DNA of 64,000 nucleotides, taken from the IMG/VR virus record IMGVR_UViG_646311923_000012; one strand, given 5' to 3'. Made by a program: the position numbers. Numbering within the stretch: the stretch's first letter is position 1; the number at the start of each line of letters is the position of its first letter. Source of the DNA: a virus (lineage: Duplodnaviria; Heunggongvirae; Uroviricota; Caudoviricetes). Below are positions 1 to 6,000 of the stretch, in pieces.

Positions 1-3000
1 TTACCATGAACTGCATGTATACTGACTTGTGTTCATGATTATATTAGGGTGGTTAAACTCAATAAAGTCACAAAAATGATTATAATTATGTAATGGTGTA
101 AAATTAAAATATTTCTTAACTCCTTTCCCCAAACCATCATAATATGGATGAGCATCTACTTTACTATGCATAAAAGAAAGTCCCTCAAGTAGAGCAGGAT
201 GATTACTACGGTTAACAATTATTGCACTATTTTCAATATTTACACTATCATTACGACGATCCACATGCATTGAAATTCCATCAGGAGCATATATTGTACC
301 AAGCTTACCTGTAAGTATCATATCCATATCAAGATAGATACACCCCTCCCCGAATGAAATACCGTGATTCTTTGTATTATATGTGCACCTGAATATCTCT
401 CCTGCTTTTAATAAGGCTAAATTTCTGAAGAAATCAAACCATGCATGATTTCTTTTCTTTGCATACATAGAAATCAAAGAATCCTGCGCCTTTGAAATTT
501 CCCTCAGCTCTTTCTCTAACAGATTCAACAAGTATTCATCTCTTTTGTCTTCAGTTCGTAACCTTTGTTCACATATAATATCATGATAAATATCTGATAG
601 TTTTCTGTCATACATACTGAAGTCAACATCTTCCCGATAGATTATCATTACATTTTCAAAATCTCGTTCCAATTTTGAAAAAGCAGTCTTTTGGTTGACT
701 GAAAAATCGCCATCAACAAAAATACCTATCATACGATCACTCTCTATCCTTGCCGCATTTGTGACATTATCTAAATAGGGATGCTGCTTAGTATTAACTA
801 TTGGAACCTCATCTTTCTTATATCGTTCAGGATTAGGTTCAAACCACTGAAAAAGAATAGGCGTTTTTTCATCAATGACCTTTAACTCATATTCCTTTCC
901 TGCAAAAGAAACCGTTTGACAGGGTGAACTCTGCACTATATTTACTGAGTTATGGAAAGTTGTCCTTATCGGTGAAAGCATTCGTCGTCCTGTTTATCCA
1001 TATTTTCTTCACAACTAACTCTTTAATCTATTAATTATATTGGCATACTCAACCACAAAACCTCCAGCAGTTTTGCCATCTTTGCTTTCCTAACAAACAT
1101 CACCATGGCATGCCAACAAAAACCGGAGCCGGACTCCGGTTTTTGTGAACCCGTCGGCTATTTCATCCCGCCAATATTTTCCCACGTCCCGTCAGCACGC
1201 AGGATTTGCAGCGGTCTTACCACGCACTGTATCTGCTTTTTATCCGCATCCAGTATCACCACCTGCGTGATTACCCTGGCCTGCTCCGGGATAATGCCAT
1301 TCTCATCGGACTCCAGAATGTCTGCTGGTCCCAGTCGCAGCTGTGCTGTAAGTAACTCCCCGTTTTCACTGTCATCATGCTTTCCGCAACCACACAGACG
1401 CTCCATAAGCTTTCTCAAAATATTCATGTCATTCTCCTGTTCTGCCTGTATCACTGCCCACTTCATCCAGTCCCTTAACATCCTGCCACGGCCCGTCGCC
1501 AAACCTGACCTGCAAATGCCGAAACAGCCCCTGAACCTGTGTGGCATCTTTGGGGTCAAGAAAGGTCAGTCCGGTGATGAGCGCACCATCTGTATCCGGG
1601 AACCAGCCATGGCTGTTTGTCTCAATAATGCTCGCCGGCCCCAGACGAAAACGGATTTGTGTCTCCCCCGGGTCGCCCTTCGGTCCCTGAGGTCCGGTTG
1701 CCCCCACCGGGCCAGCCGCACCTGTTTCTCCTTTCGGTCCCTGTGGGCCTGCCGGGCCTGCCGCACCGGTATCTCCCTTTGGACCCTGTGGACCTGCATT
1801 TCCCGTCAGACCGGTCTCTCCCCGCTCTCCCCTGTCACCTTTCGGCCCCTGCGGGCCTGCCGGACCAGCATCACCTGCCGGTCCCCGTTCGCCGGTTGCC
1901 CCGACAGGGCCGGTGTCACCGCGCTCTCCCTTATCACCCTTCGGCCCCTGAGGACCCGCGGGCCCCTGTTCCCCCTTTGGCCCGGGAGGTCCCACCACGG
2001 TGGGGATTCGGTTTACGGCCTCTTCCGCCGCTATCCTGCTTTGTTCCGCTGACTGTGCGCTTTCTGCTGACTCCCGGGCTTTTTCTGTTGCGGTCGTTGC
2101 ATCCCTGGCTGCATTACCGGCTGCACTTTCTGCCGTCTTTCTTGACAATTCAGCTTCTGCTGCACTTTGTGATGACTCACTGGCTTTTTGAGCGGCCGCA
2201 GAAGCCGAGGACGAGGACGCATCCTCTGACTGCTTTGCTGAGGCTGCACTTTCTGCCGCCTGCCGGGCTGACTCCGATGCCTCCCCTGCTGAAGTGTCAG
2301 CATTTGCAGCGCTCTCTTCTGCCTGACTGGCTGATATGCCGGCATTCCTCGCTGACGTCTCCGCCTCTCCGGCATTCTTCTTCGCCTCCTCAGCGTGACG
2401 CGCCACCTCTTCCACCATCAGTTCAAAACGGCGCAGAGCCTCCGGACGGGCATCATCCTCCGTCATGGCACCGAGAAAATCATTCAGCGTACCGGGTTGA
2501 GAATCTTCATACACGGTGATGGTCCCGGCATGTGACGGCGGGAATCCTTCCACCAACAGAATGACGCTGTACTGACCGTACTCAACGTCCATGCTGTAAC
2601 GCCCGGCTTCATCCGGATTTTCAGAGGCCACCGTGTTCACCACCACCGTGCTGCTGGTCCGTCTGGCTTTCAGTTGAATGGTACAGTTCTCTACCGGTTT
2701 TCCTGTGCCGTCTTTCAGTACACCTGAAATCTTTACTGCCATATTCACCCCACAAAAAAGCCCGCCTGAACCGGCGGGCTGTCATAACACTGTGTTACCT
2801 GGCTAATCAGAATTTATAGCCGATACCCACGATGAAGCCGTCAGTGCGCCAGTCGCCACTGGCGGAACCTTCATAAGCAAGGTCAATAACCACCGTCTCT
2901 ACGGGACTGAACTGAATCCCGGCATTCCAGGCCGGCGACAGATGACGCGCAGTATGACCATCACTGGCGGTGGTGGTCTCCTTCACATACCCCGGTTTCA

Positions 3001-6000
3001 CTTCATCACGCCGGTAATCCTGAACACTGTCAGACCAGCGGGTGTACGCCATCCCGGCCATGCCATAGAGACTGACCCGCTCACTGAACTGCCAGACAGG
3101 GCCGGCCATCAGACTGACATAACGACCGCGCAGGCTTTCATAATGGAAGGTATTTTCACCCGTCTTCATCGTGTCACTTTTCTTCACCGATGCATAACTC
3201 AGCGCGACAATGCCGCCCAGGTGATCCGTGAACTCATAACGGTATTTCACGTTAATCCCTTTTAAATCACCTGCACGCGCACCGGTACCGGACAATGCCG
3301 GTACGCCGCCCGGGTGAACCTGAGCATATCCCACGGAAAATGCACCGTGTCCGCTTTCAGCCTGTGCAGGAAAGGCAATTCCTGCCAGCAGGGTAGTAAA
3401 CAATAATATCGTTGCGTATAAATGCCGCATGATTACCTCTTTGTTTTCAGTCAATAAAAAAGGCACCTCCTGAGGTGCCCGTCCGGGTTAATAAACCGTC
3501 AGCTGATACTGATCCCTGCAGTGGATTTTTTCATGACCACAACCAGTAAATCACTGATGTACGTTGTCGGCGTCCAGTTGTTCGCACCGGCCGACGACAC
3601 ATTAAACGTCAGGGTGACATGACCCCGCCCTGCCGGCATATCTATCACCGATGAGAACACCCGGCTGACATCCGTTGCCGGTTCATGGAAAATCTCAACC
3701 CCGTTCTTCAGCACCTGCAGCTTACAGGTGGAATACCAGTACGACTGCTGATTCGGGCTGTTGAAATTCTGGTGTTTCGTCCCGCGAAACAGCACCGGGG
3801 GAATGATAATCTGCCGGTCGAAGCCCTGGTCATCGTAAACTGTGACGGTTACCGTCCCGCTGGCATAACTGTTATTCCGGGGAAAGGCTTTCCCCACCGT
3901 CTTCACCAGGTCGCCTTCTATCTGGTTTGCAGACAGTTTCCCTCTGATGACACAGTTCTCGTTAATGGTGACATTATTGAGCGTGCCGGTATTCGCGGTA
4001 ATTGCTCCACTGATATCCGCGTTCCTGGCTGTCAGCTTCCCTTCCGGCGTCAGGGAAAATGCCGGGGGATTGCCGGACGAGGTGATACTCACCGCAAACA
4101 GTCGCTTCAGGAACACATCGTTCATGAACAACTGATTCCCCTGCGCCACAAATAACGGCGTGCTGTTGCCGCTCTCCGGATTTATCATCGCAATACGGTC
4201 AGCCAGCAGCAGTATGTTGCTCAGTGGCTGGCCATCAGTATCCTCAATCCCTGCACCAATCCCGGCCACATAGGGAATGCCGTCTTTCGTTTTTTGAACC
4301 TTCAGCATGTACAGCGCAGCCAGGTCATCATTTGTGTCCTTCTGCACGCGCTGTATCTGCTGAATGGTGGCGCTCTGGTCTTCCAGCGTTTTACTGACCG
4401 TCTGTGTGATTTCATTGCGGGTTTCGGTGATGGTGGTCTTCATCTCCGCCATCTCATCCGCAAGCTGGCTGTTGTCTATCAGCTCCCATAGCCCCTGAGC
4501 CAGATGCAGTTTTCCTATTTTTTCCCGGAAAAATTCCAGATACCCTTCACCATCATTGCTGGGCTGCCCGCTGACTTCCACAAACGCAGATTTCCCCACC
4601 AGGTTGACGCTGCGCACGTAAAACCAGAAATCCTTCCCGGGCTTAATGTGCGGGCCGGATACACTCCACTGACTGCCGGTCCCCAGATAACGGGCAGAGG
4701 TTTCCACCTGAGATATGTCTGCGATTTTTGTCTCCGAAAACCAGAACTCAAACTGTACCGTCGGGTCATACACCGCAAGACGCGGGACCGCTGTTATCTG
4801 AAAATAGCCCGGTGTCAGCTCAATCGTGGCGGGTACCGCAGGTGCATTAATCCTGAACGTGGTGGTGGCCGGTTCGCCCTGCTGGCCATAACTGTTAATT
4901 GCCCTGACTGTCAGGGTGTATTCCCCGAGCGGCAGACCACTGAAACGATGCTCTGTATCCGCAGTGATGGCGGTGGTCACCAGACGGCTGTCTTCTCCGC
5001 TTCCGCTGGTCAGGCGCAGACTGAAGCGCACACCCTTCACCACCCGCGGCGTGTCCCATTTCGCCTGTGCCAGATACTGACCGTCAGCTGCGCTCACCTC
5101 CACCGTCAGGTGCTGCACTGCCGGAGGGATGACGCTGTTCAGGGTGCCTGACTGCGGCTCAAAGCTGGCCCCGTTATCCACGATGGCTTCCTTTTCCGGT
5201 ACGTGCTGCACCGCCGTGATGGCAAAGGTGCCGTCCGTGTTTTCCCGGATGGAGACACAGCGGAACAGGCGACGACGCAGTGACTGCAGGGAGAGTCCCC
5301 ATACACCGTATGTCTCCACACCATCAGGCAGGGTGCTGACCTGTATCCGGTCCGGCGCGGGGTGTGCGGTGATGTCCACACTCACCGGCTTACCGCTGCC
5401 GTTAATCAGGTTCACCGTGGCGGCACCTGTCTCCGGCAGGGTCACCTCACGGTCCAGTGTCAGGGTGCGGCTGGCGGCATCAATGGACAGGACACGTCCG
5501 CCGGTCAGGGTCCCGGCATAGTCGTTATCACAGATTTCAATGATGTCACCGGGTGTGTGCCGCAGCCCCTGAGACCCGAGCGTGAAATCCACCGTCTGCG
5601 TTTCCAGCAGTCCGGTCTTTATCACCCACAGTCCGGCACGGTGGGCCTGACCGCGGCTGGTACAGCCGAACGCGTCCATCTTCAGCAGGTTGCGTCCGTA
5701 GCGCAGTATGGCTTCCGGGTCTTCCACCAGTTCAGTGGAGGTCTGCCAGCCGTTCTGCGGGTCGGTGTAATTCACCTCCACCGCCGTGTGCCGGTCCTTC
5801 AGGGCACTGAAGCTGTAGCGGAATCCCACGCCGTTATCATCCACCACCACATCGCTGTTGGTGTACGGCCACACCACATCCGACGGGCGGTCCTGAACGA
5901 ACGTCAGCGTCTGGCCGCTCCATACCGGCATACAGCGCATCGCCGAGCAGAAATCACTGAGAACGTCCCACGCCTTACGCTGTTGTGACAGGTACGCATT

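What the first reader, a model, noticed from the sequence alone, without database searches (positions are those of the whole stretch)
2807..3960. Host-range determinants differ between otherwise identical tail blocks (lom allele and J C-terminal domain)
Within the duplicated block, lom (2807..3430 versus 55275..55874) is only about half identical at protein level. The last roughly 150 residues of J (about 3499..3960 versus 55942..56400) are divergent, while the first 1000 residues are nearly identical. This points to cassette exchange of the receptor-binding tip and the Ail/Lom protein, implying different receptor specificity for the two prophages.
Basis: seen in the sequence. Interest (0 to 1): 0.5.

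Follow-up and report, generated by a model that had tools for sequence, protein, structure and literature searches.

The report
Swapped tail-tip and Lom alleles
Two neighbouring lambda-like prophages share a similar tail-end gene block but carry different, already catalogued versions of the receptor-binding tip of protein J and of the adjacent outer-membrane gene lom, which is ordinary modular gene swapping among E. coli prophages.

Summary
Lom1 (2807-3430) and Lom2 (55275-55874) are 46-47% identical. The two J proteins are 96% identical over residues 1-1008 and about 50% identical over residues 1034-1134, and the last 24 residues are conserved again (Fisher p = 1.5e-36). The blocks are not "otherwise identical": they are 90-96% identical in DNA, only block 1 has a sodC insertion, and the tape-measure genes belong to different families.

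Synonymous sites are saturated inside the patch (pS about 0.75) against dS of 0.09-0.18 in the flanks. The patch therefore holds old alleles brought in by recombination, not fast local evolution.

Both J tips are 100% identical to tips in published Stx phages. The J2 tip is the "1A2" type. The J1 tip is 78.5% identical to "A8" (PDB 9wca). Both types were shown experimentally to use OmpC, with different ranges of OmpC variants. The likely difference is therefore OmpC-variant range, not a different receptor.

Lom is reported in the literature as a prophage-expressed outer-membrane protein that aids adhesion, not as an adsorption determinant. The lom gene and the J tip assort independently. In 5,426 E. 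coli genomes the counts are lom1+tip1 362, lom2+tip2 3,070, lom2+tip1 1,525 and lom1+tip2 0. Crossovers map to conserved linkers.

Verdict: real, ordinary and already known.

The parts
3574..3876 (-). Variable core of the J1 receptor-binding domain (J residues 1034-1134). An A8-related allele, 100% identical to the tip of phages BP-4795 and Stx2 phage 1717.
   Evidence: About 50-54% aa identity to J2 and pS 0.745. 72% core identity to A8 gpJ, PDB 9wca. 100% identity in 26 phage records. Pfam Ig_GpJ_C.
3877..4020 (-). Upstream linker of the J1 tip (about codons 986-1033, NNVTINENC...[17 protein letters not shown]). The protein is conserved but synonymous sites are saturated. It is used as a crossover zone in other prophages.
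   Evidence: pS 0.76 and pN 0.085 for codons 1009-1033. DNA identity falls below 80% from about 4020 downward. The J of L002 switches parent at KAFPR|NN.
3499..3573 (-). Conserved last 24 codons of J1 plus the stop codon ([19 protein letters not shown]). This is the joint that separates the tip cassette from the lom cassette.
   Evidence: 87% DNA identity island. 88% aa identity. Natural recombinants L073 and L080 switch from block-1 type to block-2 type at about 3545-3560.
3461..3480 (-). Terminator-like hairpin just after the J1 stop codon and upstream of lom1.
   Evidence: The counterpart in block 2 (55905-55924) keeps the hairpin with a different stem sequence.
2807..3430 (-). lom1, an Ail/Lom-family outer-membrane beta-barrel gene. 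It is the lambda-Lom-like allele, 61% identical to lambda Lom.
   Evidence: Pfam PF06316 at 168.7 bits over the full length. Annotated as Ail/Lom in RefSeq. Identities. pS 0.74-0.82 over codons 1-178 and dS 0.38 over codons 179-207.
2759..2780 (-). Terminator-like hairpin after lom1. It is identical in both blocks.
3499..6975 (-). J1, the complete tail tip / central tail fibre gene of prophage 1.
   Evidence: NCBIfam lambda_TipJ at 2306 bits against a cutoff of 1950. Pfam domain series.
55942..59415 (-). J2, the complete tail tip gene of prophage 2. Its C-terminal domain (about 56014-56313) is the 1A2-type allele.
   Evidence: Pfam. 100% identity to the tip of Stx2a_WGPS2 and 30 other phage records. 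Matches the gpJ 1A2 supplementary sequence across all readable stretches.
55275..55874 (-). lom2, the second Ail/Lom allele, 45-46% identical to lambda Lom and to Lom1.
   Evidence: Pfam PF06316 at 388.6 bits. Alignment.
1429..2748 (-). Side tail fibre gene of prophage 1, forming the flank of the patch. It is 97% identical in protein to its counterpart at 53897-55216.
   Evidence: dS 0.09.

Best explanation
The window holds two lambda-like prophages lying next to each other. They share a recombining distal-tail module (L-K-I-J-lom-stf). Inside that module sit two adjacent, independently exchangeable allelic cassettes.

Cassette 1 is the C-terminal Ig-like receptor-binding domain of J, roughly residues 1009-1134. 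It is bounded by a conserved linker upstream and by the conserved last ~20 codons of J downstream. Cassette 2 is lom, a moron-like gene bracketed by hairpin terminators, whose conserved 3' end runs into the stf flank.

Homologous recombination in these conserved joints has placed anciently diverged alleles into otherwise similar backbones. Prophage 2 carries the 1A2-type tip. Prophage 1 carries a tip related to A8. Both types have been shown experimentally to make lambda particles use the porin OmpC instead of LamB, with different ranges of OmpC variants. Virions of the two prophages would therefore most likely both dock on OmpC but accept different sets of host OmpC alleles.

Lom is not reported to act in adsorption. 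It is made in the lysogen and inserted in the outer membrane, so its two alleles change the surface of the lysogen rather than phage host range.

Shown here: the anatomy, the saturated synonymous divergence, the independent assortment and the crossover points. Inferred: OmpC use (strongly for J2, moderately for J1) and the role of Lom.
For: Divergence is confined to J residues about 1009-1134 and lom codons 1-178 (Fisher p = 1.5e-36). Inside the patch pS is 0.74-0.82, which is saturated, against dS of 0.09-0.18 in J 1-1008, I, L and stf.

The same alleles occur elsewhere. Tip1 is 100% identical in BP-4795, Stx2 phage 1717 and Stx1a phages. Tip2 is 100% identical in Stx2a_WGPS2 and others.

Independent assortment in 5,426 complete E. 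coli genomes, counting places that cover at least 80% of the query: lom1+tip1 362, lom2+tip2 3,070, lom2+tip1 1,525 and lom1+tip2 0. In 80 IMG/VR loci, tip1, A8 and tip2 tips each pair with lom2-type, and tip1-like tips also pair with lom1 and with a third lom allele. Crossovers lie at window position ~3545-3560 and at KAFPR|NN.

Receptor. The J2 tip matches gpJ 1A2 in every readable stretch of the published sequence. The J1 tip is 78.5% identical to A8 (PDB 9wca). A8 delivers to cells carrying MG1655 or EDL933 OmpC, and 1A2 only to cells carrying EDL933 OmpC (PMC11338833). Both tips are only about 43-47% identical to the LamB-binding tip of lambda.

Lom. It is a full-length Ail_Lom family member, bracketed by terminator-like hairpins, and described as a prophage-expressed adhesion moron (PMC3594210).
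Against: The receptor of the J1-type tip has not been tested. It shares only 72% identity with A8 in the variable core, and receptor switches in lambda J can need few substitutions. The 1A2 comparison relies on a machine-read PDF with frame errors and a recoded gene, so exact identity cannot be given.

Genome counts use a coverage threshold of 80% or more, not identity classes, so each class includes related alleles. No sigma-70-like promoter was found upstream of lom by the simple scan, so the independent-transcription part of the moron label is unverified here. Whether either prophage still makes particles is unknown. Prophage 2 has an IS66-family insertion just downstream of stf, and only its tail end lies in the window.
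Confidence: 0.85

Rival explanations
1. Local diversifying selection: the two tips and the two lom genes diverged in place from one duplicated block under strong positive selection, without import of foreign alleles.
For: Receptor-binding tips and surface loops are classic targets of positive selection. dN is high in the patch, at 0.41 in the J core and 0.60 in lom.
Against: Synonymous sites are saturated in the patch (pS about 0.75) while the flanks have dS of 0.09-0.18. dN/dS is well below 1. Identical alleles sit in many other backbones and in the reciprocal combination. Sharp parent switches occur at conserved joints.
Confidence: 0.03
2. The two tips recognise different receptor proteins, for example OmpC for J2 and another porin or transporter for J1.
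For: The tip cores are only about 50-54% identical. J1 is 72% identical to A8 in the core, so its receptor is not established. Lambdoid J tips are known to cover LamB, OmpC and other receptors (PMC11338833, PMC11336670, PMC12312913; listed).
Against: The closest experimentally characterised relatives of both tips are OmpC users. Both tips are far from the LamB-binding lambda tip, at 43-47% identity.
Confidence: 0.2
3. Functional coupling: Lom and the J tip are a matched pair. For example, Lom might mask or modify the receptor used by its own phage, acting in superinfection exclusion or protecting progeny from debris. That would explain why both vary together here.
For: The two hypervariable modules are adjacent. 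lom1 was found with tip1-type tips and never with tip2 (0 of 5,426 genomes; none in 80 IMG/VR loci). In Drexlerviridae the locus downstream of gpJ does encode exclusion factors (bioRxiv 10.64898/2026.04.02.716166).
Against: lom2-type pairs freely with tip1, tip2 and A8 tips. The missing combination can be explained by the rarity and recent spread of lom1. The published role of Lom is adhesion. No exclusion phenotype is known to me.
Confidence: 0.05
4. Relic genes: one or both prophages are defective and the allele differences have no present function.
For: An IS66-family element is inserted next to stf of prophage 2. EHEC-type strains are known, from general knowledge, to carry many defective lambdoid prophages.
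Against: Both J genes and both lom genes are intact full-length ORFs with low dN/dS in the conserved parts. In the closest complete genome, prophage 1 is annotated with a continuous set of integrase, replication, lysis, head and tail genes.
Confidence: 0.25

Closest known systems
gpJ '1A2' chimera donor (natural E. coli prophage J variant; Brodel et al., Nature 2024, PMC11338833)
   Same: The C-terminal domain of J2 matches it in every stretch of the published sequence that can be read, from [23 protein letters not shown] to [11 protein letters not shown]. It has been shown to redirect lambda particles from LamB to OmpC, and it works with the EDL933 OmpC variant but not the MG1655 variant.
   Different: The published construct is recoded and ends in the lambda-like ...ATAGITIS, whereas J2 ends in ...STAGISIS. 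One to a few residue differences cannot be separated from text-recognition errors.
gpJ 'A8' (PDB 9wca/9wcb, 'A8 gpJ 713'; PMC11338833)
   Same: It is the closest solved or tested relative of the J1 tip: 78.5% identity over the last 163 residues, the same length, the same conserved linker and the same C-terminal tail. It uses OmpC and accepts both MG1655 and EDL933 variants.
   Different: Identity in the variable core is only 72%. J1 is a distinct allele class. The true A8 class is present in IMG/VR loci at 98-99% identity and is only 76-77% identical to J1.
Phage lambda J receptor-binding domain bound to LamB (PDB 8xcj/8xck; PMC11101478)
   Same: The domain order is the same (hub domains, FNIII, helical shaft, beta-prism, Ig-like RBD), and residues 1-820 are 73-74% identical.
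   Different: The tip is only 43-47% identical. Lambda binds LamB. The authors note clashes between OmpC loops and the open lambda RBD.
Phage lambda Lom (PDB 9wso) and the Ail/OmpX family
   Same: Both window proteins match Ail_Lom over their full length and end in the GYKF beta-signal. The position between J and stf is the same as in lambda.
   Different: Lom1 is 61% and Lom2 45% identical to lambda Lom. Differences cluster in segments that are insertions relative to OmpX, which I infer to be the long extracellular loops. This is not confirmed, because the model of Lom1 was poor.
Tail ends of published Stx-converting and EHEC lambdoid phages (BP-4795, Stx2 phage 1717, Stx2a_WGPS2, PPompW)
   Same: They carry tips that are 98-100% identical. 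The same lom-J junction is annotated in hundreds to thousands of RefSeq E. coli genomes.
   Different: Nothing of substance. The window simply holds two of these catalogued combinations side by side.

Membership tests
Lambda-type tail tip protein J (NCBIfam NF049904 lambda_TipJ) | Full-length match above the curated cutoff | tested here: met
   J1 scores 2306.4 bits against a cutoff of 1950, covering 1-1158 of the protein and 1-1163 of the profile.
Lambda-type tail tip protein J (NCBIfam NF049904 lambda_TipJ) | Domain series FNIII-A, Phage-tail_3, two Ig domains, Phage_Tail_Tip and the C-terminal Ig_GpJ_C receptor-binding domain | tested here: met
   All six domains were found above their cutoffs in both J1 and J2.
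OmpC-dependent gpJ tips (1A2 / A8 classes of PMC11338833) | Near-identity of the C-terminal domain to an experimentally tested OmpC-dependent tip | tested here: met
   This applies to J2. Every readable stretch of the 1A2 sequence matches it, within the limits of a machine-read, recoded sequence.
OmpC-dependent gpJ tips (1A2 / A8 classes of PMC11338833) | The same criterion applied to J1 against A8 | tested here: inconclusive
   Identity is 78.5% over 163 aa and 72% in the variable core. That makes J1 a related allele, not the same one.
OmpC-dependent gpJ tips (1A2 / A8 classes of PMC11338833) | Loss of adsorption or delivery on an ompC deletion strain and rescue by ompC in trans | not testable with these tools
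   This needs wet-lab assays.
Ail/Lom outer-membrane beta-barrel family (Pfam PF06316) | Full-length profile match above the gathering score | tested here: met
   Lom1 scores 168.7 bits and Lom2 388.6 bits against a cutoff of 23, each over profile positions 1-199 of 199.
Ail/Lom outer-membrane beta-barrel family (Pfam PF06316) | Signal peptide followed by an eight-stranded barrel with a C-terminal aromatic beta-signal | tested here: inconclusive
   An N-terminal hydrophobic leader and a terminal ...GYKF are visible in the sequence. The AlphaFold model shows an N-terminal helix followed by ten strand segments but has a mean pLDDT of only 54.
Moron (independent transcription unit inserted in a phage operon) | Own terminator | tested here: met
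   Terminator-like hairpins lie directly after J and after lom in both blocks.
Moron (independent transcription unit inserted in a phage operon) | Own promoter active in the lysogen | tested here: inconclusive
   The simple sigma-70 scan found no site in either region. Expression of lambda lom in lysogens is reported in the literature.
Phage host-range determinant (as the finding labels lom) | The protein is part of the virion, or its allele changes which cells the phage adsorbs to | not tested
   No evidence for this in the papers read. Lom is described as a membrane protein of the infected or lysogenic cell. Independent assortment from the tip argues against a matched role.

The most novel reading that the evidence does not exclude
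The lom allele is not a passive passenger but is functionally tied to the tail tip encoded next to it. For example, Lom in the lysogen's outer membrane might modulate access to OmpC and so affect superinfection or re-adsorption of progeny. The absence of the lom1+tip2 combination (0 of 5,426 genomes and none of 80 viral loci) would then reflect incompatibility rather than history.
Probability: 0.05. Interest if true: 0.6.

Novelty: already known. Interest (0 to 1): 0.12.

Why it matters
As it stands this is a textbook example of mosaicism in lambdoid prophages of pathogenic E. coli, and both tip alleles and both lom alleles are already in public phage records. It has practical value only as annotation. 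Prophage 2 can be labelled as carrying the 1A2-type, OmpC(EDL933)-specific tip now used in engineered delivery particles. Prophage 1 can be labelled as carrying a widespread, untested A8-related tip found on many Stx1a and Stx2 phages. Knowing the receptor of that second class would help predict which strains those Stx phages can convert.

Tried and rejected
(1) A synthetic chimeric query, lom1+tip2, found no genome with a place covering 80% or more of it. The best hits, at 77% coverage, turned out to be lom1+tip1 with a J2-like upstream linker.

(2) The AlphaFold2 model of Lom1, built from the two window sequences only, was poor (mean pLDDT 54). The claim that differences lie in the extracellular loops therefore rests only on the gap pattern against OmpX and is left as an inference.

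(3) I looked for papers behind PDB entries 9wso (lambda Lom) and 9wca/9wcb (A8 gpJ) and found none in the library. The partner chains of 9wso remain unknown.

(4) I looked for receptor data on the PhiR phage series that carries related tips and found nothing relevant.

(5) The preprint on receptor prediction covers Drexlerviridae-type GpJ and gives no assignment for these lambdoid tips.

(6) The simple promoter scan upstream of lom found nothing.

(7) The search for att-like repeats and tRNA genes at the junction between the two prophages (48200-51300) found nothing informative.

(8) Loci L003 and L004 did not reach the script machine, so their proteins were compared through the alignment tool instead.

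(9) I rejected in-place positive selection as the cause of the divergence, because synonymous sites are saturated.

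
Full report
WHAT IS IN THE WINDOW

The window contains two lambda-like prophages lying next to each other.

Prophage 1 runs from the left edge to about 48,530. Its features are:
- an NleB-family effector gene (1-981, - strand);
- a small tail-fibre C-terminal ORF (1158-1430);
- the side tail fibre gene stf (1429-2748);
- lom1 (2807-3430);
- J1 (3499-6975);
- sodC on the opposite strand (7109-7636);
- then I, K, L, M, tape measure, and head, lysis, regulatory and replication genes;
- an integrase (47272-48291).

It is collinear at 97.6-100% identity with NZ_CP027388.1, where the integrase end abuts yccA.

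In the window, the sequence after about 48,530 is instead the right end of a second prophage. That end carries:
- an EspK effector gene (49103-50464);
- the small fibre ORF (50919-51188);
- an IS66-family element (51226-53841);
- stf (53897-55216);
- lom2 (55275-55874);
- J2 (55942-59415);
- I, K, L, M and a tape measure that runs off the window.

CHECK OF THE OBSERVATION

BLASTN and a global alignment show that the shared block is 1427-9871 against 53895-61703, at 90-96% DNA identity. It is not "identical". A stretch of roughly 600-750 bp that carries sodC is present only in block 1. Similarity ends at the M/L boundary. The tape-measure genes belong to different Pfam families, TMP_2 and Phage_HK97_TLTM.

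Within the block there is one patch of deep divergence, about 2880-4020 (55350-56460 in block 2), with a small conserved island at about 3500-3560.

At protein level Lom1 and Lom2 are 46-47% identical. J1 and J2 compare as follows:

| J residues | Identity |
|---|---|
| 1-820 | 96% |
| 821-930 | 98% |
| 931-1008 | 91% |
| 1009-1134 | 61% |
| 1034-1134 (variable core) | about 50-54% |
| last 24 | 88% |

The concentration of differences is far beyond chance: 38 of 1008 positions differ in residues 1-1008 against 53 of 105 in the core, Fisher p = 1.5e-36.

ORIGIN OF THE DIVERGENCE

Nei-Gojobori estimates give these values for the flanks:

| Flank | dS | dN |
|---|---|---|
| J codons 1-1008 | 0.18 | 0.019 |
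| stf | 0.09 | - |
| I | 0.13 | - |
| L | 0.09 | - |

Inside the patch synonymous sites are saturated. pS is 0.76 in J codons 1009-1033, 0.745 in J codons 1034-1134, and 0.74-0.82 in lom codons 1-178. It drops again in the last 29 codons of lom (dS 0.38).

The stretch [17 protein letters not shown] is conserved in protein (pN 0.085) yet saturated at silent sites. It is therefore held by purifying selection within two old lineages.

This pattern is what import of anciently diverged alleles by recombination produces. It is not what local accelerated evolution produces.

ONE CASSETTE OR TWO

I queried 5,426 complete E. coli genomes with the two native lom-to-J-tip segments and with two synthetic chimeras. 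I counted genomes in which one place covers at least 80% of the query.

| Combination | Genomes |
|---|---|
| lom1+tip1 | 362 |
| lom2+tip2 | 3,070 |
| lom2+tip1 | 1,525 (best hits 97.7% identity over 100% of the query, in one piece) |
| lom1+tip2 | 0 |

Eighty IMG/VR loci that encode relatives of the J C-terminal half gave the same picture, with more allele classes:
- tip1 with lom1 (many loci);
- tip1 with lom2-type (L031, L073, L080);
- A8-type tips with lom2-type (many loci);
- tip2 with lom2-type (eight loci);
- a 96% tip1-like tip with a third lom allele (four loci).

Parent-of-origin tracing of L073 and L080 shows a clean switch from block-1 type to block-2 type at window position about 3545-3560. 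That lies inside the conserved last ~20 codons of J. In NZ_CP027582.1 the J gene switches parent at KAFPR|NN, upstream of the variable core.

The tip and lom are therefore two separate cassettes, joined and flanked by conserved segments that serve as crossover zones. They are not a single unit.

WHAT THE TIPS DO

Both C-terminal domains match Pfam Ig_GpJ_C, [quoted passage not shown]. In lambda this domain inserts four loops into LamB (PMC11101478). Both window tips are only 43-47% identical to the lambda tip.

Their best match among solved structures is "A8 gpJ 713" (PDB 9wca/9wcb). A8 and a second natural variant, 1A2, were grafted onto lambda J by Brodel et al. (Nature 2024, PMC11338833). 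Both redirect particles to OmpC. Between them they served 21 of the 23 OmpC variants tested. A8 works with MG1655 and EDL933 OmpC, and 1A2 only with EDL933 OmpC.

The 1A2 sequence in that paper's supplement is recoded and machine-read with frame errors. Even so, every readable stretch matches J2, from [23 protein letters not shown] through [55 protein letters not shown] and [15 protein letters not shown] to [11 protein letters not shown]. J2 therefore carries the 1A2-type tip.

J1 is 78.5% identical to A8 over 163 residues and 72% in the core. The true A8 class is found separately in IMG/VR loci at 98-99% identity. J1 is thus a related but distinct allele whose receptor is inferred, not shown.

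Both tips are 100% identical to tips of published phages. Tip1 occurs in BP-4795, Stx2 phage 1717 and many Stx1a phages. Tip2 occurs in Stx2a_WGPS2 and many Stx2a phages.

The side tail fibres of the two prophages are 97% identical.

The best reading is that both phages dock on OmpC and differ in which OmpC variants they accept. I give about 0.2 to the alternative that J1 uses a different receptor.

WHAT LOM DOES

Both proteins are full-length Ail/Lom family members. Lom1 is the lambda-like lineage, 61% identical to lambda Lom. Lom2 is 45% identical. The position between J and stf is the same as in lambda.

Each gene is bracketed on its coding strand by terminator-like hairpins. The hairpin after J keeps its structure with a different stem sequence in the two blocks, and the hairpin after lom is identical. 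The simple scan found no sigma-70 consensus promoter.

The literature describes Lom as an outer-membrane beta-barrel produced during infection and lysogeny, a moron product that improves adhesion to human epithelial cells (PMC12309495; PMC3594210). Nothing I found makes it a determinant of phage adsorption, so the label "host-range determinant" is not justified for lom.

Conserved segments between the two alleles include GINVKYRYEFTD, MAGP, MAGMAY and the last ~40 residues. The variable segments coincide with the insertions relative to OmpX. I take these to be the long extracellular loops, but the structural model was too poor to confirm that.

COMPARISON WITH WHAT IS KNOWN, AND NOVELTY

Modular exchange of the J C-terminus is established, and natural variants have been exploited to retarget lambda particles (PMC11338833; bioRxiv 10.1101/2025.02.28.640725). 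Related lambda-like phages with OmpC-binding tips are described, such as Gifsy-1 (PMC12312913) and phage 21 (PMC11336670), both listed.

Both tip alleles and both lom alleles are present in public phage records and in hundreds to thousands of RefSeq genomes. The finding is real but ordinary and already known.

The only loose thread is the absence of the lom1+tip2 combination. I attribute it to the rarity of lom1. I give a 5% chance that it reflects a functional tie between Lom and the tip.

CONFIDENCE

- Mosaic exchange of two independent cassettes: 0.85.
- OmpC use by J2: about 0.8.
- OmpC use by J1: about 0.55.
- Interest: low.

Noticed in passing
window 6976-7826 (sodC CDS 7109-7636, + strand): A Cu/Zn superoxide dismutase gene (Pfam Sod_Cu) sits on the opposite strand between J and I in prophage 1. 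It is absent from prophage 2, where the J-I spacer is only about 240 bp. It looks like a classic moron insertion, and the same arrangement is annotated in RefSeq genomes.
   Followed up: partly
window 47272-51200: The two prophages lie next to each other. The integrase end of prophage 1 (int 47272-48291) is followed, from about 48,530, by the cargo end of prophage 2 (EspK effector gene 49103-50464). In NZ_CP027388.1 the same integrase end abuts yccA instead. No att-like repeat or tRNA gene was found at the junction.
   Followed up: partly
window 51226-53841 (- strand): A complete IS66-family element (three ORFs: HTH_Tnp_1, TnpB_IS66 and the DDE_Tnp_IS66 transposase) is inserted between stf of prophage 2 (53897-55216) and the small 'tail fibre C-terminus' ORF (50919-51188). 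These two genes are adjacent in prophage 1 (1158-1430 and 1429-2748).
   Followed up: partly
window 9871-12757 and 61703-63994: Similarity between the two tail blocks stops at about 9871/61703, and the tape-measure proteins belong to different families (TMP_2 against Phage_HK97_TLTM). The same distal tail tip module is therefore joined to different tail-shaft modules.
   Followed up: no
window 1-981 (- strand): An NleB-family type III effector arginine glycosyltransferase gene (NCBIfam 697 bits) lies at the cargo end of prophage 1. Prophage 2 carries EspK at the equivalent position, so the two tail ends carry different effector cargo.
   Followed up: no
window 29901-30150 (- strand): Three tRNA genes lie in a row. 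ARAGORN calls them Arg-tct, Arg-tcg and Met-cat, and RefSeq annotates the last as Ile. In the collinear annotated genome they sit between the Q antiterminator gene and the SASA-family esterase and lysis genes. From general knowledge this is the layout of Stx phages, but no stx gene is annotated there.
   Followed up: no
window 3461-3480 versus 55905-55924 (- strand): The terminator-like hairpin just after the J stop codon is kept in both blocks, but with different stem sequences (GGGCACCT...AGGTGCCT against GGGCGTCA...TGACGCCT). The structure is preserved across the allele boundary.
   Followed up: no
PDB 9wso (lambda Lom) and 9wca/9wcb (A8 gpJ 713): Solved structures of lambda Lom and of the A8 tip exist in the 2026 PDB copy, but no paper describing them was found in the library. 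Chain C of 9wso is Lom, which suggests other chains are present, and I could not identify them.
   Followed up: partly
locus L026 (IMGVR_UViG_2693429523_000005): This single 5.9-kb locus matches both tip1 (100%) and tip2 (99%), and both lom1 (99%) and lom2 (97%). It may hold two tail ends close together or it may be an assembly chimera.
   Followed up: no
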